Part shown: one piece after another, positions 135 through 14,600 of the stretch
Layout of the letters: each line of letters begins with the position of its first letter
How positions within the stretch are numbered: position 1 is the stretch's first letter
IMG/VR virus record: IMGVR_UViG_2541047905_000010
Strand: one strand, 5' to 3'
DNA: 37,360 bases
DNA from: a virus
Taxonomy: Duplodnaviria > Heunggongvirae > Uroviricota > Caudoviricetes
The notes under the pieces: generated by a model
What the model was told of the DNA's origin: nothing
Database searches by the model: none
What the model saw: the letters and a program-made list of their open reading frames with translations, nothing else
Translations under genes and position numbers: made by a program

Positions 135-1205
135 TTATTTGATTTCAATTTTGTCCCACTCCCTGCCTCTGTCATCACGATACTGTGATGCCATGGTGTC
201 CGACTTATGCCCGAGAAGATGTTGAGCAAACTTATCGCTTATCTGCTTCTCATAGAGTCTTGCAGACAAACTGCGCAACTCGTGAAAGGTAGGCGGATCC
301 CCTTCGAAGGAAAGACCTGATGCTTTTCGTGCGCGCATAAAATACCTTGATACTGTGCCGGATGAAAGCGGTTCGCGACGAGTAGATGCAATTATGGTTT
401 CTCCGCCAAGAATCTCTTTGCATTTATCAAGTGTTTCCTTCATTGATATTCCGAGAGCATCAACATGCAATGCTGTTGGGATGGCAATTTTTACGCCTGT
501 TTTGCTTTGCTCGACATAAAGATATCCATCTACGATATCAGACCACTTCATTTCGCATAAATCACCAACTCGTTGCCCGGTAACAACAGCCAGTTCCATT
601 GCAAGTCTGAGCCAACATGGTGATGATTCTGCTGCTTGATAAATTTTCAGGTATTCGTCAGCCGTAAGTCTTGATCTCCTTACCTCTGATTTTGCTGCGC
701 GAGTGGCAGCGACAGGGTTTGTTGTTATATGGCCTTCAGCTATTGCCTCTCGGAATGCATCGCTCAGTGTTGATCTGATTAACTTGGCTGACGCCGCCTT
801 GCCCTCGTCTATGTATCCATTGAGCATTGCCGCAATTTCTTTTGTGGTGATGTCTTCAAGTGGAGCATCAGGCAGACCCCTCCTTATTGCTTTAATTTTG
901 CTCATGTAATTTATGAGTGTCTTCTGCTTGATTCCTCTGCTGGCCAGGATTTTTTCGTAGCGATCAAGCCATGAATGTAACGTAACGGAATTATCACTGT
1001 TGATTCTCGCTGTCAGAGGCTTGTGTTTGTGTCCTGAAAATAACTCAATGTTGGCCTGTATAGCTTCAGTGATTGCGATTCGCCTGTCTCGGCCTAATCC
1101 AAACTCTTTACCCGTCCTTGGGTCCCTGTAGCAGTAATATCCATTGTTTCTTATATAAAGGTTAGGGGGTAAATCCCGGCGCTCATGACTTCGCCTTCTT
1201 CCCAT
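135..1205 (-). CDS. int: Tyrosine integrase (lambda Int, 356 aa)
   Basis: 356-aa ORF; C-terminal HxxR...Y catalytic region (HELRSLSARLY, LLGHKSDTMASQYRDDRG) typical of lambda Int; sits next to the att core. Confidence 0.97.
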   Translation of the reverse strand: MGRRRSHERRDLPPNLYIRNNGYYCYRDPRTGKEFGLGRDRRIAITEAIQANIELFSGHKHKPLTARINSDNSVTLHSWLDRYEKILASRGIKQKTLINYMSKIKAIRRGLPDAPLEDITTKEIAAMLNGYIDEGKAASAKLIRSTLSDAFREAIAEGHITTNPVAATRAAKSEVRRSRLTADEYLKIYQAAESSPCWLRLAMELAVVTGQRVGDLCEMKWSDIVDGYLYVEQSKTGVKIAIPTALHVDALGISMKETLDKCKEILGGETIIASTRREPLSSGTVSRYFMRARKASGLSFEGDPPTFHELRSLSARLYEKQISDKFAQHLLGHKSDTMASQYRDDRGREWDKIEIK

Positions 1206-4876: not shown

Positions 4877-5037
4877 ACAGCTCCCCGTTTATTATTTATC
4901 TCCTCAGCCAGCCGCTGTGCTTTCAGGGGATTTCTGATAACAGAAAGGCCGGGAAATACCCAGCCTCGCTTTGTAATGGAGTAGACGAAAGTGATCGCGC
5001 CCACCCGGATATTATCGTGAGGATGCGTCATCGCCAT
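4849..5037 (-). CDS. Hypothetical small protein (lambda orf60a-like position)
   Basis: 62-aa ORF overlapping the exo start region; positional assignment. Confidence 0.35.
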
Positions 5038-5708
5038 TGCTCCCCAAATACAAAACCAATTTCAGCCAGTGCCTCGTCCATTTTTTCGATGAACTCCGGC
5101 ACCATCTCGTCAAAACTCGCCATGTACTTTTCATCCCGCTCAACCACGACATAATGCAGGCCTTCACGCTTCATACGCGGGTCATAGTTGGCAAAGTACC
5201 AGGCATCTTTTCGCGTCACCCACATGCTGTACTGCACCTGGGCCATGTAAGCCGACTTTATGGCCTCGAAACCACCGAGCCGGAACTTCATGAAATCCCG
5301 GGAGGTAAACGGGCATTTCAGCTCAAGGCCATTGCCGTCACTGCATAAACCATCGGGAGAGCAGGCGGTACGCATACTTTCGTCGCGATAGATGATCGGG
5401 GATTCAGTAACATTCACGCCGGAAGTGAATTCAAACAGAGTTCTGGCGTCGTTCTCGTACTGTTTTCCCCATGCCAGCGCCTTAGCATTAACTTCCGGAG
5501 CCACACCGGTGCAAACCTCAGCCAGCAGGGTGTGGAAGTAGGACATTTTCATGTCAGGCCACTTTTTTCCGGAGCGGGGTTTTGCTATCACATTGTGAAC
5601 TTCTGAAGCGGTGATGACGCCGAGCCGTAATTTGTGCCACGCATCATCCCCCTGTTCGACAGCTCTCACGTCGATTCCGGTACGCTGCAGGATAATGTCC
5701 GGTGTCAT
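5028..5708 (-). CDS. exo: Lambda exonuclease (Red-alpha, 226 aa)
   Basis: 226-aa ORF matching lambda Exo from memory ([40 protein letters not shown]...). Confidence 0.97.
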
Positions 5709-6490
5709 GCAGCCACCTTCTGCTCAGTGGCTTTCTGTTTCAGGAATCCAAGAGCTTTCACTGCTTCGGCCTGTGTCAGTTCTGACGATGCGCGAATGTC
5801 GCGGCGAAATATCTGGGAACAGAGCGGCAATAAGTCGTCATCCCATGTTTTATCCAGGGCAATCAGCAGAGTGTTAATCTCCTGCATGGTTTCATCGTTA
5901 ACCGGAGTGATGTCGCGTTCCGGCTGACGTTCTGCAGTGTATGCGGTATTTTCGACAATGCGCTCGGCTTCATCCTTGTCATAGATACCCGCAAATCCGA
6001 AGGCCAGACGGGCACACTGAATCATGGCTTTATGCCGTAACATCCGTTTGGGATGCGACTGCCACGGCCCCGTAATTTCTCTGCCTTCGCGGGTTTTGAA
6101 TGGTTCGCGGCGGCATTCATCCATCCACTCGGTAACGCAGATCGGATGATTACGGTCCTTGCGGTAAATCCGGCATGTACAGGATTCATTGTCCTGCTCA
6201 AAGTCCATGCCATCAAACTGCTGGTTTTCATTGATGATGCGGGACCAGCCATCAACGCCCACCACCGGAACGATGCCATTCTGCTTATCAGGAAAGGTGT
6301 AAATTTCTTTCGTCCACGGATTAAGGCCGTACTGGTTGGCAACGATCAGTAATGCGATGAACTGCGCATCGCTGGCATCACCTTTAAATGCCGTCTGGCG
6401 AAGAGTGGTGATCAGTTCCTGTGGGTCGACAGAATCCATGCCGACACGTTCAGCCAGCTTCCCAGCCAGCGTTGCGAGTGCTGTACTCAT
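5705..6490 (-). CDS. bet: Beta single-strand annealing protein (Red-beta, 261 aa)
   Basis: 261-aa [62 protein letters not shown]...; overlaps the exo start. Confidence 0.97.
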
Positions 6491-6495
6491 CCGTT

Positions 6496-6792
6496 TTATA
6501 CCTCTGAATCAATATCAACCTGGTGGTGAGCAATGGTTTCAACCATGTACCGGATGTGTTCTGCCATGCGCTCCTGAAACTCAACATCGTCATCAAACGC
6601 ACGGGTAATGGCTTTTTTGCTGGCCCCGTGGCGTTGCAAATGATCGATGCATAGCGATTCAAACAGGTGCTGGGGCAGGCCTTTTTCCATGTCGTCTGCC
6701 AGTTCTGCCTCTTTCTCTTCACGGGCGATCTGCTGGTAGTGACGCGCCCAGCTCTGAGCCTCAAGACGATCCTGAATGTAATAAGCGTTCAT
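6496..6792 (-). CDS. gam: Gam, RecBCD inhibitor, short form only (98 aa)
   Basis: [21 protein letters not shown]...[10 protein letters not shown]; the reading frame upstream of this Met has an in-frame stop and no start codon. Confidence 0.9.
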
Positions 6793-6867: not shown

Positions 6868-7158
6868 TTAGCGATTCAGGCCGTTACCGCGTCCGTCGAG
6901 AAAAACTTCCACGAGCAAATCACGGGTATAAGTGCGCTCGATGCCGCGATGCAGATAAAGCCGTCCGCGTAAATTAGCTGATGCAGTCCAGGTACCATCT
7001 TTGTGTTTGACCAGCATTCCTGGCATGACCGCACCTCGATTAACGGTCTGCGTTCCGTAATGTTGATGAACCATAAAAACTCCTGCCCGTAAGCTGGGCT
7101 GCTGAACATATAGAGACTTCTGCGCGTATTCAGGCGGTGGATGGCCGCCGGTTGTCAT
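6868..7158 (-). CDS. Hypothetical protein in the first-gene position of the leftward early operon (96 aa from ATG; track ORF extends to 7278 from TTG with an Arg-rich N-terminus)
   Basis: Only substantial minus-strand ORF between the candidate pL/OL and gam; not recognisably N, kil or cIII. Confidence 0.35.
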
Positions 7159-7295
7159 AACTAAGTCGCCTCGTTGAAGCGACTGAGGTATGAAGTGTTG
7201 AGTTGATTTCAGCTGGTCACACCGACGTTCACGCGTCCGCTTCACCCCTCGCACTCCCCGAAGCCTGCTGAAATTCAAACTGCGGATCTAAGCGG

Positions 7296-7347
7296 TCATC
7301 GCAACGGTGAAACAGGTGGTTACCGTATCGTTGTGTCGTTGCGATGA
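7296..7347 (-). promoter_or_regulatory. 11-bp perfect inverted repeat (tcatcgcaacg / cgttgcgatga) with 30-bp spacer, in the leader of the leftward early transcript
   Basis: Read directly from the sequence; no U-tract follows, so it is not an intrinsic terminator. Confidence 0.3.
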
Positions 7348-7363
7348 ATTTATTTAAAACTAT

Positions 7364-7430
7364 AGTTGTTTTATCGTCAACAACAAAAGTTGTTTTGTCG
7401 GTTGTTTTAAATATAACTGGTTGTATTTAG
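7364..7430 (-). promoter_or_regulatory. Candidate OL/pL operator-promoter region
   Basis: gttgtt-N8-aacaac at 7365-7384 has the same half-sites as the palindrome between the repressor and cro-like genes; further GTTGT repeats follow at 7389-7425. Confidence 0.35.
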
Positions 7431-7516: not shown

Positions 7517-7546
7517 AGGAAAAGAAAACCCGGCGCGGTTGCCGGG
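7517..7546 (-). terminator. Intrinsic terminator downstream of the lipoprotein gene
   Basis: Minus-strand RNA: CCCGGC-AACCGC-GCCGGG followed by UUUUCUUUUC, 9 nt after the stop codon. Confidence 0.65.
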
Positions 7547-7554
7547 TATGATTA

Positions 7555-7935
7555 TCAGTCAGCCCAACCTGATTTCGAGTTTATTTGGGTTTCTGACATT
7601 GTGTATTTCTTAATCGTGTCATCGTTAAAAAGAATAGTAAGTTCTTTTTTCGTACCGTTCGTTCCATTATGGAATAATCCATAGAATGGAATAAAAGTGG
7701 TGCCATTAACTTTTACTTTTGCAAAGGCGTACTTCCAGATCTCGTTTCCACTGTCAGTATATGAAACAGCATCAGGAGAACCAAAGTAAGATTTAACCTC
7801 ATTCTTGGTTGTTTTACCTTCCTGAAGTTTAGACTGGACACTAATTTCAGTTTCATTTTTGAGTTGCTGGTTGCCTGAAGAAGCACACCCAGCCAATACA
7901 GATGCCATCATGGCAGCGATTAGGATTTTTCTCAT
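7555..7935 (-). CDS. Lipoprotein (signal peptide with LAGC lipobox), BamE/OmlA-like fold suspected; lysogenic-conversion moron
   Basis: MRKILIAAMMASVLAGCASS...; AT-rich codon usage; sits directly downstream of the repressor gene on the same strand and has its own terminator. Confidence 0.8.
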   Translation of the reverse strand: MRKILIAAMMASVLAGCASSGNQQLKNETEISVQSKLQEGKTTKNEVKSYFGSPDAVSYTDSGNEIWKYAFAKVKVNGTTFIPFYGLFHNGTNGTKKELTILFNDDTIKKYTMSETQINSKSGWAD

Positions 7936-8164: not shown

Positions 8165-8854
8165 TTAACCATGCTTCCTGTACGTCTGCGGCATGCTTCC
8201 AATGACCTTACCGAATATGAACACCCGGTTCATCTCGTCTTTCTCGATCGGGTCCCACGGCGAGTAGCTCTTGTTATCAGAGATAACCAGCAGCTTATCC
8301 TTCATCATTTGAAGACGTTTTACATGGGCAGTGTCGTCGTACAGAAACGCATAGATGCCATCACCGTCGAAAGATTTAACAGTGATATCAACGAACAGCA
8401 GGTCACCTGGTTCGATCGTCCCTGACATGCTGTCACCTCGCACGTTAATGATGCGGATATTTTCCGCCTTCCTGCCATCGAACATGTGACGAGCATCGTC
8501 AAACGAGTACTCAACCGAGCGTAGAACTTCTACAAACTCACGGTTGATTACACCTGGCCCGGCACTGACTTCTATATCAAGAACGTCAATTTTGAAGTAT
8601 TTGGAATGGCTGACAGTTGATTGTATTGGTTGCACTGTACTGTCTGACATATTTCCAACGCCAGAAGATAACCATTCTGCGCGCACACCCAAAGCGTTCG
8701 CGATCTCCACGATTTTAGTTGTTTGGTTAGCTTTCCCTGTTTCGATTTTCTGAATAGCAGCCTGGCTAACCCCGACCAAATCCCCAAGCGCCTTTTGTGT
8801 AAGGCCTCGCGCTAATCTGGCTTCTTTAAGTCTTTCTGAGAGTGTTGTTTTCAT
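8165..8854 (-). CDS. Prophage repressor, HTH (XRE) + S24 LexA-like peptidase domain (CI-type, not lambda cI)
   Basis: 229 aa; N-terminal LTQKALGDLVGVSQAAIQKIETGK helix-turn-helix; C-terminal Ser/Lys autocleavage module (GDSMSGT...KRL); divergent from the cro-like gene. Confidence 0.9.
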   Translation of the reverse strand: MKTTLSERLKEARLARGLTQKALGDLVGVSQAAIQKIETGKANQTTKIVEIANALGVRAEWLSSGVGNMSDSTVQPIQSTVSHSKYFKIDVLDIEVSAGPGVINREFVEVLRSVEYSFDDARHMFDGRKAENIRIINVRGDSMSGTIEPGDLLFVDITVKSFDGDGIYAFLYDDTAHVKRLQMMKDKLLVISDNKSYSPWDPIEKDEMNRVFIFGKVIGSMPQTYRKHG

Positions 8855-9258: not shown

Positions 9259-9798
9259 ATGCAACCACTTACATACCAACAGACTAGCGGATTTATTCCG
9301 ACTGCGGTGATAAATCGTTCTCAAACAAAACAAGCTCCAGGCCACGAAAAAATCCGTGATGCCGTCCGCGCCTGGTCGGCTGTAGATAATCAGGATGTCG
9401 TTGCCGCACTCATTGTGAATGAGTATCGGGAGCAGGGCGACGGCACCATCGATTTCCCTGATGATGTCAGCCGTGCACGCCAGAAGCTGTTCCGCTTCCT
9501 CGATAACAAATTCGATTCTGAAAAATACCGAAATAACGTGCGTGAACTGACCCCGGCAATTCTGGCGGTACTACCGCTGGAATATCGCGGTTACCTGGTT
9601 GAGCAGGATAGCTTCATGACTCGGTTGGCTGAAATGGAAAAGGAACTCAGTGAGGCAAAACAGGCTGTCATTCTCAACGCACCACGCCACCAGAAACTGA
9701 AGGAAATGAGTGAAGGTATTGTGTCGATGTTTCGTGTGGACCCGGATCTGGCTGGTCCATTAATGGCGATGGTGACCACCATGCTGGGGGCAATATGA
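9259..9798 (+). CDS. YdaT-family protein (proposed CII functional analogue)
   Basis: 179 aa; occupies the cII slot; motif LTPAILAVLPLEYRGYL resembles the YdaT family as recalled. Confidence 0.65.
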   Translation: MQPLTYQQTSGFIPTAVINRSQTKQAPGHEKIRDAVRAWSAVDNQDVVAALIVNEYREQGDGTIDFPDDVSRARQKLFRFLDNKFDSEKYRNNVRELTPAILAVLPLEYRGYLVEQDSFMTRLAEMEKELSEAKQAVILNAPRHQKLKEMSEGIVSMFRVDPDLAGPLMAMVTTMLGAI

Positions 9799-9884
9799 CA
9801 GGTTCAGAAATGGCGAAAGTCGGTCTGCGGGAACAGAACCGACTTTCAGGTGCAAATCGTAACACACTCATTGCGGGAGGAATT

Positions 9885-10814
9885 ATGGCAAACACTGCTG
9901 AGATATTCAATTTTCCAGTGCCGGATGCGGCACAAAAGGAGCCGCGCGTGGCAGATCTCGATGATGGTTATACGCGCATTGCAAATGAGTTGCTGGAAGC
10001 TGTGATGCTGGCCGGATTAACACAGCACCAGCTTCTGGTCTTCCTGGCTGTCATGCGCAAAACATATGGCTTTAATAAAAAACTGGATTGGGTGAGCAAC
10101 GAGCAACTTTCCGAGTTGACCGGGATATTGCCGCACAAGTGTTCTGCTGCAAAAAGCGTTCTGGTAAAGCGTGGGATTCTTATTCAGAGCGGGCGGAATA
10201 TCGGCATTAATAATGTGGTCAGTGAATGGTCAACATTACCCGAATCAGGTAAGAAAAATAAAGTTTACCTGAAAGAGGTAAATTTACCTGAATCAGGTAA
10301 GAAAAGTTTACCCAAATCAGGTAAAGGCGTTTACCCGAATCAGGTAAACACAAAAGACAAACTAACAAAAGACAATATAAAACCTTTTTCGTCCGAGAAT
10401 TCTGGCGAATCCTCTGACCAACCAGAAAACGATCTTCCTGTGGAGAAACCAGATGCTGCAATTCAGAGCGGCAGCAGGTGGGGGACAGCAGAAGACCTGA
10501 CCGCCGCAGAGTGGATGTTTGACATGGTGAAGACCATCGCGCCATCAGCCAGAAAACCGAATTTTGCAGGGTGGGCTAACGATATCCGCCTGATGCGTGA
10601 ACGTGACGGACGTAACCACCGCGACATGTGCGTGCTGTTCCGCTGGGCATGCCAGGACAACTTCTGGTCCGGTAACGTGCTAAGTCCGGCCAAACTCCGC
10701 GACAAGTGGACCCAACTCGAAATCAACCGTAACAAGCAACAGGCTGGCGTGACAGCCGGAAAATCAAAACTCGACCTGACAAACACTGACTGGATTTATG
10801 GGGTGGATTTATGA
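9885..10814 (+). CDS. O: Replication initiator O (lambda O family); track ORF starts at 9795
   Basis: N-terminal region VADLDDGYTRIANELLEA...RKTYGFNK matches lambda O; ori iterons embedded in the coding sequence; GGAGG ribosome-binding site before ATG 9885. Confidence 0.9.
   Translation: MANTAEIFNFPVPDAAQKEPRVADLDDGYTRIANELLEAVMLAGLTQHQLLVFLAVMRKTYGFNKKLDWVSNEQLSELTGILPHKCSAAKSVLVKRGILIQSGRNIGINNVVSEWSTLPESGKKNKVYLKEVNLPESGKKSLPKSGKGVYPNQVNTKDKLTKDNIKPFSSENSGESSDQPENDLPVEKPDAAIQSGSRWGTAEDLTAAEWMFDMVKTIAPSARKPNFAGWANDIRLMRERDGRNHRDMCVLFRWACQDNFWSGNVLSPAKLRDKWTQLEINRNKQQAGVTAGKSKLDLTNTDWIYGVDL
10236..10385. repeat. Origin of replication: four to five ~19-bp iterons (tttacccgaatcaggtaag-type) plus A-rich tract
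   Basis: Direct repeats at about 10236-10253, 10283-10301, 10307-10325, 10329-10347 with a degenerate copy at 10264-10282, then cacaaaagacaaactaacaaaagacaatataaaa. Confidence 0.85.
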
Positions 10815-11512
10815 AAAACATCGCCGCACAGATGGTTAACTTTGACCGTGAGCAGATGCGCCGGATCGCCAACAACATGCCGGAACAGTACGACGAAAAG
10901 CCGCAGGTACAGCAGGTAGCGCGGATCATCAACGGTGTGTTCAGCCAGTTACTGGCAACTTTCCCGGCGAGCCTGGCTAACCGGGACCAGAACGAACTGA
11001 ACGAAATCCGCCGCCAGTGGGTTCTGGCTTTCCGGGAAAACGGGATCACCACAATGGAACAGGTTAACGCAGGAATGCGCGTAGCCCGTCGGCAGAATCG
11101 ACCATTCCTGCCATCACCCGGGCAGTTTGTCGCCTGGTGCCGGGAAGAAGCATCCGTTACCGCCGGACTGCCAAACGCCAGCGAGCTGGTTGATATGGTT
11201 TACGAGTATTGCCGGAAGCGTGGCCTGTATCCGGACGCAGAGTCTTATCCATGGAAATCAAACGCGCACTACTGGTTGGTTACCAACCTGTACCAGAACA
11301 TGCGGGCCAATGCGCTGACTGACGCGGAATTACGGCGTAAAGCTGCCGATGAGCTGACCTGTATGACCGCGCGAATTAACCGTGGTGAGGCGATACCTGA
11401 ACCAGTAAAACAACTTCCTGTCATGGGCGGTAGGCCTCTAAATCGTGCACAGGCTCTGGCGAAGATCGCAGAAATCAAAGCGAAGTTCGGACTGAAAGGA
11501 GCAACTGTATGA
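10811..11512 (+). CDS. P: Replication protein P (DnaB helicase loader, 233 aa)
   Basis: 233-aa ORF matching lambda P from memory (MKNIAAQMVNFDREQMRRIANNMPEQYDEKPQVQQVA...). Confidence 0.96.
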   Translation: MKNIAAQMVNFDREQMRRIANNMPEQYDEKPQVQQVARIINGVFSQLLATFPASLANRDQNELNEIRRQWVLAFRENGITTMEQVNAGMRVARRQNRPFLPSPGQFVAWCREEASVTAGLPNASELVDMVYEYCRKRGLYPDAESYPWKSNAHYWLVTNLYQNMRANALTDAELRRKAADELTCMTARINRGEAIPEPVKQLPVMGGRPLNRAQALAKIAEIKAKFGLKGATV

Positions 11513-11828: not shown

Positions 11829-12323
11829 ATGAGAAAATTTATTATAGCCTTTGTCATAAGTGCCTCGTTTACTGCAAATGCTGGTGTAGAGAAGTTAGGG
11901 TCGTGGATAACAAAGTCTGAGATAAATAAAATGACTGACCAGACTGACTTTGTGGCTCTTAATTTATCACCAGATTCATATAACAAAGCAGGTACTGATC
12001 GTGCAACTTCACTGGTGTTGCGTTGTAGTGATAACAAAACAGATGCCTATTTATCATTCAATGATTATATGGGTTCGGACAACCCAAGAATTACAGTGCG
12101 GTTAGATGGCGGAAAGCCGGTCAAGAGTGCTTGGGGAGGTGGGGAAGGCGGTGATTCTGCATTTGCTCCACAACCAATACAATTTATAAAGACCTTGGCT
12201 AAGCATAAAAAAGCTATTTTTGGGTTTGAACCTTATGGATCAACTATGCAAGTAGTTGAGTTTGACTTGTCTGAGATTGATAAGGTTGTGGAAAAAATTT
12301 CACAGTCTTGCAATTGGAAATGA
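11829..12323 (+). CDS. Secreted/periplasmic hypothetical protein (Sec signal peptide, two Cys); AT-rich moron
   Basis: 164 aa; MRKFIIAFVISASFTANA signal peptide; AAGGAGA ribosome-binding site; followed by an intrinsic terminator; lower GC than the flanks. Confidence 0.7.
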   Translation: MRKFIIAFVISASFTANAGVEKLGSWITKSEINKMTDQTDFVALNLSPDSYNKAGTDRATSLVLRCSDNKTDAYLSFNDYMGSDNPRITVRLDGGKPVKSAWGGGEGGDSAFAPQPIQFIKTLAKHKKAIFGFEPYGSTMQVVEFDLSEIDKVVEKISQSCNWK

Positions 12324-12340
12324 CAAAAAAATTTCATATG

Positions 12341-12368
12341 AACCCAGTTGGCGCTGGGTTTTTTATTT
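12341..12368 (+). terminator. Intrinsic terminator after the secreted-protein gene
   Basis: aacccag-ttggcg-ctgggtt hairpin followed by ttttatttc. Confidence 0.65.
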
Positions 12369-13096
12369 CAGTAGCCAATAATGCATTCAAAATCTCTTAC
12401 TTGAGAAACGGCCTATTTGAGATTTCAGTCGTGGCAGGATGATCAGTTGATTCGAGTATTGACGCATTTGCGTTCGGAGCGATTACAGTAGATTGTAAAT
12501 AATAATGAGAAACACATAGCCACATAGCCACCCCGTGGTATTGAAACCATATAATGTTGGATTTGAAAACAGATCTTTTCCCATGTATTAATAACTACAT
12601 CCCCGCGAGTGATTCAAAAAGGAGGGCCCAATTTTGTCCGAGTTTTTGTATTCCCCCGCATGCCGCTGCGGAGCACTACATCTGAGTGTCTGACTAGGGG
12701 ATAAAATTAGACTGGATAGTGAGAAGAAAGTGGCGCGCTAGGCTGTGCCGAGTGCTACCAGTACACCTTGGGGGTGTGCAGCTTTCGCCGAGACTGTAGT
12801 GGGTATCGGTTAATGCACGAAAAACCGAGAGGTCAGACAACCAATTTGCCGTAGGATTGTTTCCGGTGCGATACCGGTCTACTAACTGAAAGCAATGCGA
12901 AAAAGCATAAACTCGGTCCTTCAGTCGCCCTACACACTATTTACTAAGAAGGGCTGAAGCATGGATACAATTATTACATGGATGGGAGATCGTCTGTTGG
13001 GGGGGACACAAAAATCCGATCTGCAGCAGATGGCGATCACTGGATTAACTTCCGCGATTTGTTCAACAATTTTGTACACTGAAAAATTAAAACATG

Positions 13097-13105
13097 GTGA
13101 GCCTA
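13097..13105. repeat. IS1 target-site duplication, left copy (gtgagccta)
   Basis: Identical 9-mer directly flanks both IS1 ends. Confidence 0.9.
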
Positions 13106-13120
13106 GGTAATGACTCCAAC

Positions 13121-13624
13121 TTATTGATAGTGTTTTATGTTCAGATAATGCCCGATGACTTTGTCATGCAGCTCCACCGATTTTGAGAACGACAGCGACT
13201 TCCGTCCCAGCCGTGCCAGGTGCTGCCTCAGATTCAGGTTATGCCGCTCAATTCGCTGCGTATATCGCTTGCTGATTACGTGCAGCTTTCCCTTCAGGCG
13301 GGATTCATACAGCGGCCAGCCATCCGTCATCCATATCACCACGTCAAAGGGTGACAGCAGGCTCATAAGACGCCCCAGCGTCGCCATAGTGCGTTCACCG
13401 AATACGTGCGCAACAACCGTCTTCCGGAGCCTGTCATACGCGTAAAACAGCCAGCGCTGGCGCGATTTAGCCCCGACATAGCCCCACTGTTCGTCCATTT
13501 CCGCGCAGACGATGACGTCACTGCCCGGCTGTATGCGCGAGGTTACCGACTGCGGCCTGAGTTTTTTAAGTGACGTAAAATCGTGTTGAGGCCAACGCCC
13601 ATAATGCGGGCTGTTGCCCGGCAT
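13121..13624 (-). CDS. insB: IS1 transposase InsB (expressed as InsAB' by -1 frameshift)
   Basis: 167-aa ORF matching IS1 InsB from memory ([58 protein letters not shown]...). Confidence 0.93.
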
Positions 13625-13818
13625 CCAACGCCATTCATGGCCATATCAATGATTTTCTGGTGCGTACCGGGTTGAGAAGCGGTGTAAGTGAACTGCAGTT
13701 GCCATGTTTTACGGCAGTGAGAGCAGAGATAGCGCTGATGTCCGGCGGTGCTTTTGCCGTTACGCACCACCCCGTCAGTAGCTGAACAGGAGGGACAGCT
13801 GATAGAAACAGAAGCCAC
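13543..13818 (-). CDS. insA: IS1 InsA (transposition inhibitor / N-terminal part of InsAB')
   Basis: 91-aa [45 protein letters not shown]... Confidence 0.93.
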
Positions 13819-13873
13819 TGGAGCACCTCAAAAACACCATCATACACTAAATCAGTAAGTTGGCAGCATCACC

Positions 13874-13882
13874 GTGAGCCTA
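13874..13882. repeat. IS1 target-site duplication, right copy (gtgagccta)
   Basis: Identical to 13097-13105. Confidence 0.9.
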
Positions 13883-14144
13883 TTAACCCAAACGAAGAAG
13901 AAAAACTTTATAGGCTTTGGTATGAAGGAAACGCTTGAAAGAATAAAGCACAATTAAAACCTTTGATTTGCGATAATCAACTTGCCATAATTAAGTAATC
14001 GGAGCCTGAACAACTCCGGTGACTTCTGCGCTAAACGGGGACGTTTATGCGCACATACAATCCAAACTATCTTCTCCTTTCACAGATGCAGAAATGCACC
14101 TGCAATTCTTTGCATCTAGCGTTTGACCTCTGTGGAGGTGAAGC

Positions 14145-14600
14145 GTGAACCTCCCACAAGATGGCATCAAATTGCATCGCGGTAACTTCACCGCTATCGG
14201 TCAGCAGATCCAGCCTTATCTGGAAGACGGCAAATGCTTTCGCATGGTGCTTAAACCGTGGCGAGAGAGACGCAGTCTTTCCCAGAATGCACTCAGCCAC
14301 ATGTGGTACAGCGAAATCAGTGAATACCTCATCAGCAGGGGGAAATCGTTCGCTACCGCAGCATGGGTAAAAGATGCTCTCAAACACACATACCTCGGTT
14401 ATGAAACCAAGGACCTGGTTGATGTCGTAACCGGCGAAATCACTACTATCCAGTCGTTACGCCATACCTCCGATCTTGATACCGGAGAGATGTATGTCTT
14501 CCTGTGTAAGGTTGAAGCCTGGGCGATGAATATTGGCTGCCACCTGACTATTCCGCAGAGCTGCGAGTTCCAGCTGCTGCGCGACAAGCAGGAGGCGTAA
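14145..14600 (+). CDS. ninB: NinB-family recombination protein (DLP12 YbcN-like)
   Basis: 151 aa with GTG start; [20 protein letters not shown] motif typical of the NinB family; first gene of the nin module. Confidence 0.75.

What the first reader, a model, noticed from the sequence alone, without database searches (positions are those of the whole stretch)
12330..12960. Approximately 630-bp ORF-free segment with hairpins: possible structured non-coding RNA or decayed gene
No frame on either strand holds an ORF longer than about 45 codons, and none has a convincing ribosome-binding site, yet the segment is less AT-rich than the flanking moron and contains several GC-rich imperfect palindromes. 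It lies between a terminator and the start of a small ORF, which fits a long 5' leader, a cis-regulatory RNA, or an independent non-coding RNA. I could not assign it to any RNA family by eye.
Basis: seen in the sequence. Interest (0 to 1): 0.55.

Follow-up and report, generated by a model that had tools for sequence, protein, structure and literature searches.

The report
New structured RNA gene in lambdoid phages
Most of the ORF-free stretch is a previously undescribed, roughly 335-nucleotide folded RNA gene with its own promoter, carried by lambda-like phages of E. coli, Klebsiella, Enterobacter, Citrobacter and Obesumbacterium; its role is unknown, and the rest of the stretch is a broken gene remnant.

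Summary
Window 12330-12960 has no ORF longer than 48 codons and lies between a terminator (12340-12361) and a small ORF (12961).

It is a composite:
- A 3' remnant of a Bro-N/P22_AR_C antirepressor-like gene (12405-12491).
- A conserved sigma-70 promoter (-35 at 12563-12568, -10 at 12586-12591).
- A structured RNA of about 335 nt (12599-12932, + strand).

I collected about 100 copies (35 distinct sequences, 73-100% identical) from lambdoid phages and prophages of five enterobacterial genera. The fold is supported:
- 98% of cells pair, against 30-49% with slid partners.
- 16 pairs show compensatory changes, against 0-5.
- G·U pairs indicate the + strand.
- One compensatory change supports a pseudoknot.

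The RNA is more conserved (79-82%) than the neighbouring gene (71-75%; third codon positions 46-56%). In relatives, three unrelated intrinsic terminators sit at its 3' end.

No Rfam 15 family, tRNA or tmRNA matches, and I found no paper describing it. The flanking genes change while the RNA stays constant, and the downstream genes also occur without it.

Best reading: an autonomous, prophage-expressed "RNA moron" that acts as a folded RNA. Its function is unknown. A cis-regulatory leader is the main rival.

The parts
12340..12361 (+). Intrinsic terminator of the upstream VasI/TagO-like lipoprotein moron (ORF 11829-12323). Not part of the RNA gene.
   Evidence: Hairpin GAACCCAGTTGGCGCTGGGTTT followed by a T-run. 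Pfam VasI hit for the ORF.
12405..12491 (+). Decayed gene: 3' remnant (last ~29 codons plus stop) of a Bro-N/P22_AR_C antirepressor-like gene.
   Evidence: The translation ...ETAYLRFQSWQDDQLIRVLTHLRSERLQ* aligns with the C-terminus ...FQPWQDDKWSRVLPHLRSDRLQ* of the intact 202-aa ORF of phage IdasGreatGrand. Pfam Bro-N and P22_AR_C hits for that ORF. DNA identity is 82% here, against 99% in the RNA.
12513..12531 (.). 8-nt tandem repeat CACATAGC x2.4 in the spacer upstream of the promoter; one unit fewer in IdasGreatGrand.
12563..12591 (+). Promoter of the RNA: -35 TTGAAA (12563-12568), 17-nt spacer, -10 TATTAA (12586-12591, preceded by TG). The predicted start is A12599, 7 nt downstream.
   Evidence: Read from the sequence. 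In every sequence type a -35 hexamer (TTGAAA/TTGAAT/TTGTAT/TTGATA), a 17-nt spacer of unrelated sequence, a -10 hexamer (TTTAAT/TTAAAT/TTATAT/TATTAA) and 6-7 nt to the conserved 'ATCCCCGCGAG' keep the same register. The generic scan missed it because its rule requires T at position 6 of the -10.
12599..12932 (+). Structured non-coding RNA, about 335 nt, the core of the finding. The 5' domain is 12599-12702 (P1 12599-12604 / 12697-12702). The 3' domain is 12710-12926, closed by helix 12710-12715 / 12921-12926.
   Evidence: nhmmer and covariance-model hits of 304-401 bits for true copies only. RNAalifold consensus of 81 pairs. Covariation counts. The + strand gives 98.1% canonical pairs against 85.8% on the - strand. 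No Rfam, tRNA or tmRNA hit.
12689..12694 (+). 5' strand (UCUGAC) of the proposed pseudoknot linking the two domains.
   Evidence: It is complementary to 12832-12837 in 33 of 34 distinct sequences. C97:G235 becomes U:A in the Citrobacter copy L164, which breaks the rival local hairpin.
12832..12837 (+). 3' strand (GUCAGA) of the proposed pseudoknot.
12946..13106 (+). Ribosome-binding site (AAGAAGGG, 12946-12953) and 5' part of the small ORF 'c0' (ATG at 12961). In the window this is a decayed allele cut by IS1.
   Evidence: The uninterrupted 66-aa allele is in E. coli VR50. The full 118-aa form is in IdasGreatGrand and other genera. The length of a G-run varies between copies.
13107..13873 (-). 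IS1 insertion with a 9-bp target duplication GTGAGCCTA (13098-13106 and 13874-13882).
   Evidence: Sequence read. InsA/InsB-like ORFs 13121-13624 and 13543-13818 on the - strand. Identification as IS1 rests on my recognition of the terminal sequences and was not tested against a library.
13874..13938 (+). 3' part of the interrupted c0 allele (…INPNEEEKLYRLWYEGNA*).

Best explanation
Window 12599-12932 (+) is a gene for a folded non-coding RNA of about 335 nt. It is an autonomous module, an 'RNA moron', of lambda-like phages of Enterobacterales.

Shown:
- The sequence is under purifying selection.
- It folds into two domains with covariation-supported helices, with a probable pseudoknot between them.
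- The + strand is the folded strand.
- A sigma-70 promoter keeps a fixed register in front of it in all variants.
- In three of the six downstream-gene contexts (15 of the 35 distinct copies) an intrinsic terminator follows its last conserved base.
- The neighbouring genes on both sides are exchanged while the RNA is kept, and the downstream genes also occur elsewhere without it.

Inferred:
- The RNA is transcribed from its own promoter independently of pR, probably also in the lysogen.
- It works as a folded RNA in trans, most likely by binding or decoying a protein. It probably does not work by coding for a peptide or by long antisense pairing to its own phage.

In the window lineage the terminator is missing. 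The RNA is therefore the 5' part of a transcript that continues into the small ORF c0, which here is a pseudogene (G-run frameshift, internal deletion, IS1). The biological role is unknown. It could concern lysogeny, superinfection or host physiology.
For: Family and conservation:
- About 100 copies, 35 distinct sequences, 73-100% identical.
- Found in Escherichia, Klebsiella phage Kp4856-1, Enterobacter bugandensis, Obesumbacterium proteus and Citrobacter braakii.
- Always a single copy per phage, between the replication genes and the nin/Q genes.
- Between genera the RNA is 79-82% identical, the adjacent c0 gene 71-75%, and its third codon positions 46-56%.
- Within E. coli the RNA is 99.1% identical, against 82% and 91% for the two decaying flanks.

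Structure:
- On the MAFFT alignment A2, 98.1% of cells pair against 32-49% with slid partners; 11 pairs have double changes against 1-5; the covariation score is 0.206 against at most 0.063.
- With five more sequences, 16 pairs have double changes against 0-5, and no shuffle out of 500 reached that.
- Strand: 12.6% of cells are G·U, giving 98.1% canonical pairs on + against 85.8% on -.
- Pseudoknot: one compensatory change.

Transcription unit:
- Promoter register conserved while the spacers are unrelated.
- Three different terminator sequences at the same place, with z-scores of -3.0 to -5.5.

Autonomy:
- Four or more upstream gene families and six downstream gene families flank the same RNA.
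- In L056 the RNA plus terminator is followed only by an ordinary DUF1367 nin-region gene.
- c28-like and c0-like proteins occur without the RNA in L161, L166, L167 and L168.
Against: - There are no expression data. The promoter, the start site and the 3' end are all predictions.
- In three of the six downstream contexts (c0, c63, c81), including the window, there is no terminator and the next ORF starts 27-50 nt after the RNA. There the RNA is physically a 5' leader.
- Where a terminator is present, there is no room for a separate promoter before the downstream ORF.
- No protein partner is conserved next to the RNA, so 'protein-binding' is a guess.
- The sampled family is shallow: a handful of clades and an effective sequence number of 1.09 in the model. 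Single-pair covariation is therefore noisy. The second count was made on an alignment fitted to the model.
- MFE z-scores are unremarkable.
Confidence: 0.55

Rival explanations
1. Cis-regulatory leader. The RNA is a long structured 5' UTR (riboswitch-, attenuator- or leader-peptide-type) that gates transcription or translation of whatever cargo gene lies downstream. It would do this by terminator read-through, or by hiding the ribosome-binding site.
For: - The downstream ORF is always on the same strand and 27-100 nt away, with no recognisable promoter of its own.
- A terminator sits directly between RNA and ORF in the c32, c28 and DUF1367 contexts.
- In the window the RNA tail GCCCU can pair with AGGGC of the c0 ribosome-binding site, at -6.9 kcal/mol.
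- An SD-like AAAGGAGGG plus UUG plus 19 codons ends at a UGA inside the pseudoknot strand, as a leader peptide would.
Against: - The cargo genes are unrelated to each other: a four-helix-bundle c0, a 2-TM protein, c28, c63, c81 and DUF1367. None has a Pfam or PADLOC hit in common.
- These genes also exist without the RNA.
- No convincing antiterminator alternative to the very stable terminators was found by inspection.
- The tail-SD pairing is not better than shuffles (z = -0.76).
- The mini-ORF has a stop codon in the L007 type and a frameshift in L075, and shows no synonymous variation in its first 10 codons.
Confidence: 0.22
2. Processive antitermination RNA acting in cis on RNA polymerase (put-like or EAR-like). 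It would let transcripts started at its promoter read through its own and downstream nin-region terminators towards Q.
For: It lies upstream of the nin/Q region, where lambdoid phages carry terminators. The arrangement is a promoter, then a structured RNA, then a terminator.
Against: - There is one copy per phage, not one per early operon.
- It is not promoter-proximal to pL or pR.
- The window phage has an ORF with an arginine-rich N-like start, so an N-independent device is not required.
- A constitutive promoter driving Q would be lethal in a lysogen. The inverted repeat at the -35 is the same in phages with different repressors.
- At 335 nt it is far larger than put (about 70 nt; from my own knowledge).
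Confidence: 0.06
3. Base-pairing (antisense) regulator of phage or host mRNAs, like the prophage sRNAs DicF, AgvB or AsxR or the immunity RNAs of P1 and P4.
For: It has its own promoter and a Rho-independent terminator with a U-tail in relatives. It has long invariant single-stranded stretches.
Against: - No complementary stretch of 12 nt or more is shared among three whole phage genomes; the counts are near chance.
- No other similarity was found in 5,426 E. coli genomes at E <= 1.
- Size, multi-helix fold and pseudoknot are atypical for seed-type sRNAs.
- Short seeds of 7-10 nt were not testable.
Confidence: 0.08
4. No RNA function: the whole segment is decaying coding sequence or neutral spacer, or it acts only as DNA (protein-binding sites).
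For: The left part (12405-12491) really is a gene remnant. No frame is open. The MFE is not exceptional.
Against: - The core is more conserved than neighbouring coding DNA across genera.
- The changes are compensatory within helices.
- G·U pairs that would be A·C on the other strand show a strand-specific constraint, which DNA sites would not have.
- No frame is conserved.
Confidence: 0.04

Closest known systems
Morons of lambdoid phages (extra genes with their own promoter and terminator, expressed from the prophage; concept from HK97/HK022 comparative genomics, cited from my own knowledge)
   Same: It is an insertion-like module between conserved early genes. It has its own sigma-70 promoter and, in most relatives, its own intrinsic terminator. 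It is swapped as a unit. In K-12 DLP12 the equivalent position holds the morons ybcL and ybcM (my knowledge of the K-12 map).
   Different: The product is a structured RNA, not a protein. In the window lineage the terminator is missing.
GOLLD and ROOL large structured RNAs (Rfam families; prophage-associated, function unknown; PMC12286853)
   Same: A phage- or prophage-borne, multi-helix, covariation-supported RNA with no partner protein and no known function.
   Different: There is no Rfam hit to either. It is much smaller (335 nt against roughly 580-800). It occurs in Enterobacterales lambdoid phages rather than Firmicutes or metagenomes, and is not next to tRNA genes. Oligomerisation was not tested.
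HK022 put RNAs and other cis-acting antitermination RNAs
   Same: A lambdoid-phage RNA element on the early rightward transcript, upstream of terminators.
   Different: Single copy, its own promoter, about five times larger, not next to pL or pR.
Lambda pR'-tR' unit (the '6S' transcript)
   Same: A constitutive promoter, a short non-coding transcript and a terminator, followed by genes that have no promoter of their own.
   Different: It lies in the early region. The same promoter region accompanies different Q types (clusters 5 and 29). The transcribed part is under strong structural selection, which is not known for the lambda 6S region.
Type III toxin-antitoxin RNAs (ToxI-like) and retron ncRNAs
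   Same: A non-coding RNA placed directly upstream of variable, possibly toxic effector-like genes on a mobile element.
   Different: There are no tandem repeats. No reverse transcriptase appears among the neighbours. The RNA is constant while the downstream proteins are unrelated and also occur without it.

Membership tests
Any Rfam 15 family (4,227 models, including GOLLD, ROOL, OLE, HEARO, raiA, T-box, riboswitches, RNase P, 6S, tmRNA, C4, IsrK, STnc100, DicF) | A covariance-model match at the gathering score, or at least a marginal E-value | tested here: not met
   No hits at gathering score in the whole window. No hits at E <= 5 in 12200-14200. No hits on the element at E <= 1 in five loci with divergent copies.
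tRNA / tmRNA | Cloverleaf or tRNA-like domain detectable by ARAGORN | tested here: not met
   No genes found in 12200-13100.
Type III antitoxin RNA (ToxI, CptI, TenpI) | A tandem array of ~30-50-nt repeats directly upstream of an endoribonuclease toxin gene | tested here: not met
   The only tandem repeat is an 8-mer x2.4 outside the RNA. No internal direct repeats.
Retron ncRNA (msr-msd) | An adjacent reverse-transcriptase gene | tested here: not met
   No RT among the neighbours in gene maps of 80 contexts, nor in the precomputed Pfam lists.
Moron (autonomous prophage-expressed module) | Its own promoter upstream | tested here: met
   The register of -35, 17-nt spacer, -10 and start is conserved across variants with unrelated spacers. 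Promoter activity itself was not tested.
Moron (autonomous prophage-expressed module) | Its own terminator downstream | tested here: inconclusive
   Present, in three unrelated sequences, in the c32, c28 and DUF1367 contexts. Absent in the window and in the c0, c63 and c81 contexts.
Terminator-type riboswitch / attenuator | A mutually exclusive antiterminator-terminator pair, and functionally coherent downstream genes | tested here: not met
   No stable alternative to the terminators was seen by inspection. The downstream genes are heterogeneous. Ligand binding is not testable here.
HK022 put-type antitermination RNA | Two copies, each just downstream of pL and pR, about 70 nt with two stem-loops | tested here: not met
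   Single copy per phage at E <= 100. It lies about 3.5 kb downstream of cro. Direct comparison with put sequences is not possible with these tools.
Small-protein gene | An open frame conserved in all copies, with an excess of synonymous changes | tested here: not met
   The 19-codon UUG frame has a premature stop in the L007, L014 and L015 types and a frameshift in L075. Its first 10 codons show only non-synonymous differences.
Hfq-type base-pairing sRNA | A seed complementary to target mRNAs; Hfq dependence | not testable with these tools
   Only long matches (11-12 nt or more) could be screened, and none is shared among three phage genomes.

The most novel reading that the evidence does not exclude
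The RNA is a new functional class: a compact two-domain RNA (ligand- or protein-sensing, or catalytic) that lambdoid prophages express. It would either control a swappable downstream 'cargo' slot holding toxin- or defence-like genes, or itself interfere with competing phages or host machinery. That would make it an RNA-based analogue of a protein moron in the best-studied phage group.
Probability: 0.2. Interest if true: 0.85.

Novelty: new variant of a known kind. Interest (0 to 1): 0.62.

Why it matters
Lambda-like phages of E. coli are among the most thoroughly dissected genetic systems. Even so, this 335-nt RNA, with its conserved promoter, covarying helices and probable pseudoknot, is unannotated in all 159 complete E. 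coli genomes that carry it. It is absent from Rfam 15.

It sits in a gene-exchange hot spot next to unknown, possibly toxic cargo genes. It survives in defective prophages where both neighbouring genes have decayed.

If it is expressed from the prophage, it adds an RNA to the list of lysogenic-conversion or superinfection factors. It would also give RNA structural biology a new mid-sized fold in a tractable host.

The phage IdasGreatGrand and Klebsiella phage Kp4856-1 carry it, so knock-outs and Northern blots are directly feasible.

Tried and rejected
- Rfam at gathering and at permissive thresholds, on the window and on divergent homologues: nothing. ARAGORN: nothing.
- Single-sequence folding: z-scores not significant on either strand, so this carries no weight.
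- Scan of one genome per species (185,579 species) with two patterns: only chance hits, L077-L080. The family is absent from species-representative genomes.
- Plasmid collection: no match.
- A pseudoknot-based pattern scan for distant relatives in IMG/VR brought only chance matches in coding DNA, L109-L128. L054, L060, L067 and L070 were chance hits too.
- All-against-all column covariation is too noisy with so few clades to find new pairs.
- Antisense targets in the window, IdasGreatGrand and Kp4856-1: near chance and not shared.
- A second copy per phage: none.
- CI-operator idea for the inverted repeat at the -35: rejected, because the same repeat occurs with different repressors.
- Q-specific control: rejected, because the same promoter occurs with different Q families.
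- Alternative long-range pairing 12638-12648 / 12906-12916: contradicted by G43C in L055, L056 and L157.
- c0 protein: predicted as a four-helix bundle (pLDDT 80) with no significant structural match. My by-eye 'HEPN' (c28) and 'PIN' (c63) labels got no support from Pfam, PADLOC, PHROGs or PDB sequence searches. They should be regarded as unsupported.
- Literature searches by topic and by sequence string found no description of this RNA. One possibly relevant 2026 preprint on genome-language-model mining of non-coding elements was listed but could not be opened.

Full report
**Setting**

The window is a lambda-like (DLP12-type) prophage of E. coli. Its layout is:
- integrase at 135-1205 (-)
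- exo/RecT/Gam at 5028-6792 (-)
- an S24-type repressor at 8165-8854 (-), followed on the + strand by a cro-like gene
- a YdaT-type cII analogue at 9259-9798
- O at 9795-10814 and P at 10811-11512
- a short ren-like ORF
- a VasI/TagO-like lipoprotein ORF at 11829-12323
- the segment in question
- a small ORF cut by IS1
- ninB/ybcN from 14145

RefSeq annotation of identical regions in other E. coli strains gives the same order and nothing under the segment.

**Checking the observation**

- No ORF overlapping 12330-12960 exceeds 48 codons on either strand.
- The terminator-like hairpin at 12340-12361 and the ATG at 12961 bound the segment as described.
- GC is higher than in the moron only in the right half: 0.44-0.52 for 12450-12899, against 0.36-0.37 for 12150-12599.
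- Folding energies of the single sequence are not unusual. The case therefore rests on comparison, not on the hairpins themselves.

**What the segment is made of**

The left part, 12405-12491, translates to ...FQSWQDDQLIRVLTHLRSERLQ*. This aligns with the C-terminus of an intact 202-aa Bro-N/P22_AR_C protein of Escherichia phage IdasGreatGrand. It is a gene remnant, left when the lipoprotein moron and its terminator replaced the rest of that gene.

The right part is different. A Klebsiella phage (Kp4856-1) shares 78% identity with window 12599-12927 only, with unrelated flanks, and there the shared block ends in a perfect intrinsic terminator.

**Collecting the family**

I ran exact-pattern scans of IMG/VR and of metagenome contigs, BLAST of phage and E. 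coli collections, and look-ups of contigs that encode relatives of the downstream proteins. Together these gave about 100 copies and 35 distinct sequences, 73-100% identical.

- Hosts named by the sources are Escherichia, Klebsiella, Enterobacter bugandensis, Obesumbacterium proteus and Citrobacter braakii.
- The element is rare: 159 of 5,426 complete E. coli genomes, 4 of 50,697 phage records, no PLSDB plasmid, and none of 185,579 species-representative genomes.
- It is single-copy in each phage.
- It always lies after the replication and early accessory genes and before the nin/Q genes.

**Structure**

RNAalifold on a MAFFT alignment of 30 distinct sequences predicts 81 pairs in two domains.

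- A 5' domain (columns 2-105) is closed by AUCCCC/GGGGAU.
- A 3' domain (columns 113-329) is closed by GAYUGG/YCAGUC.

On that alignment:
- 98.1% of sequence-by-pair cells are canonical, against 32-49% when the 3' partners are slid by 1-3 columns.
- 11 pairs carry double (compensatory) changes, against 1-5.
- The covariation score is 0.206, against at most 0.063.

The compensatory changes are concentrated in helices 129-134/184-189, 139-140/156-157, 190-198/205-213 and at pair 227/320.

Adding Obesumbacterium, Enterobacter and Citrobacter copies (34 sequences, model-based alignment) raises the double-change pairs to 16, against 0-5, and no shuffle out of 500 reached this. That alignment is fitted to the model, so it leans towards the structure.

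G·U pairs make up 12.6% of cells. The same pairs read on the opposite strand are only 85.8% canonical, against 98.1%, so the + strand is the folded one.

Two invariant stretches, GUCUGAC (columns 91-97) and GUCAGAC (235-241), are complementary. In the Citrobacter copy C97:G235 has become U:A. This keeps the long-range pairing and breaks the competing local hairpin. That is one event only, so the pseudoknot is probable but not proven.

A covariance model built from the alignment scores true copies at 304-401 bits. Apart from the short pattern-matched pieces, it finds nothing in 16 unrelated control loci.

**Selection**

- Between genera the RNA is 79-82% identical. The adjacent c0 coding sequence is 71-75% identical and its third codon positions 46-56%. 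DNA further upstream is unalignable, at about 40%.
- Between two E. coli lineages the RNA is 99.1% identical and its promoter region 97.8%. The gene remnant on the left is 82% and c0 on the right 91%.
- In the window both neighbours are dead: the remnant on one side, and a frameshifted, internally deleted, IS1-split c0 on the other. The RNA is identical to that of 13 other loci.

**Transcription signals**

In every variant the conserved 'ATCCCCGCGAG' is preceded by the same arrangement:
- 6-7 nt, then a -10 hexamer (TATTAA, TTTAAT, TTAAAT or TTATAT, mostly with an upstream TG)
- a 17-nt spacer whose sequence is unrelated between variants
- a -35 hexamer (TTGAAA, TTGAAT, TTGTAT or TTGATA)

In the window this gives -35 at 12563-12568, -10 at 12586-12591 and a predicted start at A12599. 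This is inference from conservation, not a measurement.

At the 3' end, canonical intrinsic terminators begin within about 10 nt of the last conserved base. They occur in three unrelated versions: CCGCCnnnnGGCGG+U8, GCCACCGAAAGGTGG+U6, and the Citrobacter version. Their z-scores are -3.0 to -5.5.

The E. coli, Enterobacter and Obesumbacterium copies that precede c0 lack a terminator, as do the copies preceding c63 and c81. In those the RNA runs straight into the next ORF.

**Neighbours**

The genes upstream belong to at least four families:
- VasI/TagO-like
- Bro-N/P22_AR_C
- dATP/dGTP pyrophosphohydrolase-containing
- an unknown family

The genes downstream belong to six:
- c0 (118 aa, predicted four-helix bundle, no significant structural match)
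- a 178-aa protein with hydrophobic ends
- c28 (183 aa)
- c63 (177 aa)
- c81 (95 aa)
- an ordinary DUF1367 nin gene

None has a Pfam or PADLOC match; they match only PHROGs of unknown function. My first impression that c28 and c63 look HEPN- and PIN-like was not confirmed by any search.

Relatives of c28 (in Superficieibacter, Pantoea and one metagenome contig) and a 51%-identical relative of c0 occur without the RNA. The RNA with its promoter therefore behaves as a module of its own. Its 3' boundary is a recombination joint at which cargo genes are exchanged.

**What it is not**

- It matches no Rfam 15 family, even at E <= 5, and is not a tRNA or tmRNA.
- It is not a tandem-repeat antitoxin.
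- It is not next to a reverse transcriptase.
- An SD-like AAAGGAGGG followed by UUG and 19 codons is present. That frame has a stop in the L007 type and a frameshift in L075, and shows no synonymous variation, so coding is unlikely.
- No antisense target of 12 nt or more is shared among three complete phage genomes.
- There is no similarity to other E. coli DNA.
- Literature searches by topic and by sequence found no description. One 2026 preprint on coevolution-based mining of non-coding elements could not be read.

**Interpretation**

The best-supported statement is that this is a real, selected, structured RNA gene of lambdoid phages and a family not yet catalogued.

How it works is inference. 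I favour (about 0.55) an autonomous RNA made from its own promoter, probably also in the lysogen, that acts through its fold in trans, for example by binding a protein. The reasons are:
- It has promoter-plus-terminator architecture.
- It has module-like inheritance.
- It has invariant unpaired stretches and a compact two-domain fold.
- It has no conserved neighbour.

The main rival (about 0.22) is a cis-acting leader gating the downstream cargo slot. This rival is favoured by three points:
- There is no separate promoter for the cargo.
- Half of the contexts lack a terminator.
- The RNA tail can weakly pair with the ribosome-binding site in the window.

Put-like antitermination, seed-type antisense regulation, and 'no function' are less likely, for the reasons given under the rivals.

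**Unexplained**

Every variant carries a different inverted repeat at or just upstream of its -35 hexamer. This is not tied to the immunity type.

**Verdict**

- The RNA is new at the family level. In kind it resembles other phage-borne structured RNAs of unknown function and protein morons.
- It deserves experimental follow-up, which is straightforward because cultivable phages carry it.

Noticed in passing
window 13107-13873 (target duplications 13098-13106 and 13874-13882): An IS1 insertion with the 9-bp target duplication GTGAGCCTA splits the small ORF that follows the RNA. Precise excision restores the 66-aa allele seen in E. coli VR50.
   Followed up: partly
window 12961-13106 and 13874-13938; G-run at about 12999-13006: The small ORF c0 is a decayed allele. 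The full form is 118 aa (IdasGreatGrand, Enterobacter, Obesumbacterium). E. coli prophage copies differ in the length of a G-run near codon 14 and carry an internal deletion giving 60-66-aa products. The G-run could be a slippage site.
   Followed up: partly
window 11829-12323 (+), terminator 12340-12361: An AT-rich lipoprotein ORF with a weak VasI/TagO (type VI secretion-associated) Pfam match and its own terminator. It is a protein moron that displaced most of a Bro-N/P22_AR_C gene.
   Followed up: partly
window 7555-7935 (-): A second lipoprotein-type ORF (signal peptide with Cys, weak BamE-domain match) directly downstream of the repressor gene, followed by a terminator-like hairpin near 7520-7545. 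Its position is analogous to rexAB in lambda.
   Followed up: no
window 6868-7278 (-) and 7290-7420: An ORF beginning with an arginine-rich stretch (GVRGVKRTRERR), reminiscent of N antiterminators. It is preceded by a region with repeated AAAACAAC motifs and a TTGACG promoter-like site, possibly pL with operators and nutL.
   Followed up: no
window 12530-12570, and the equivalent place in L004, L056, L063, L157: Each RNA variant has a different inverted repeat overlapping or just upstream of its -35 hexamer. The repeat is the same in E. coli prophages with different repressor and cro genes, so it is not a CI operator.
   Followed up: partly
window 12513-12531: An 8-nt tandem repeat CACATAGC x2.4 between the gene remnant and the RNA promoter. 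IdasGreatGrand has one unit fewer.
   Followed up: no
L132 (NZ_CP174001.1, 43,337-bp circular 'plasmid' pOHT76-1_1 of E. coli SZQ1): This record, annotated as a plasmid, carries the lambdoid replication, nin and Q genes and the same RNA. It looks like a circular phage genome rather than a plasmid.
   Followed up: no
L166 2654-2926 (Superficieibacter sp.): Where the c28-like gene occurs without the RNA, the 460-nt gap upstream holds an uncalled ORF of about 90 codons followed by a terminator.
   Followed up: no
L004 4337-4362: The generic terminator scan did not report the clear terminator AAACCGCCTACCGGCGGTTTTTTTT. Folding confirmed it at -15.1 kcal/mol, z = -4.2. Negative results of that scan should not be relied on.
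   Followed up: yes
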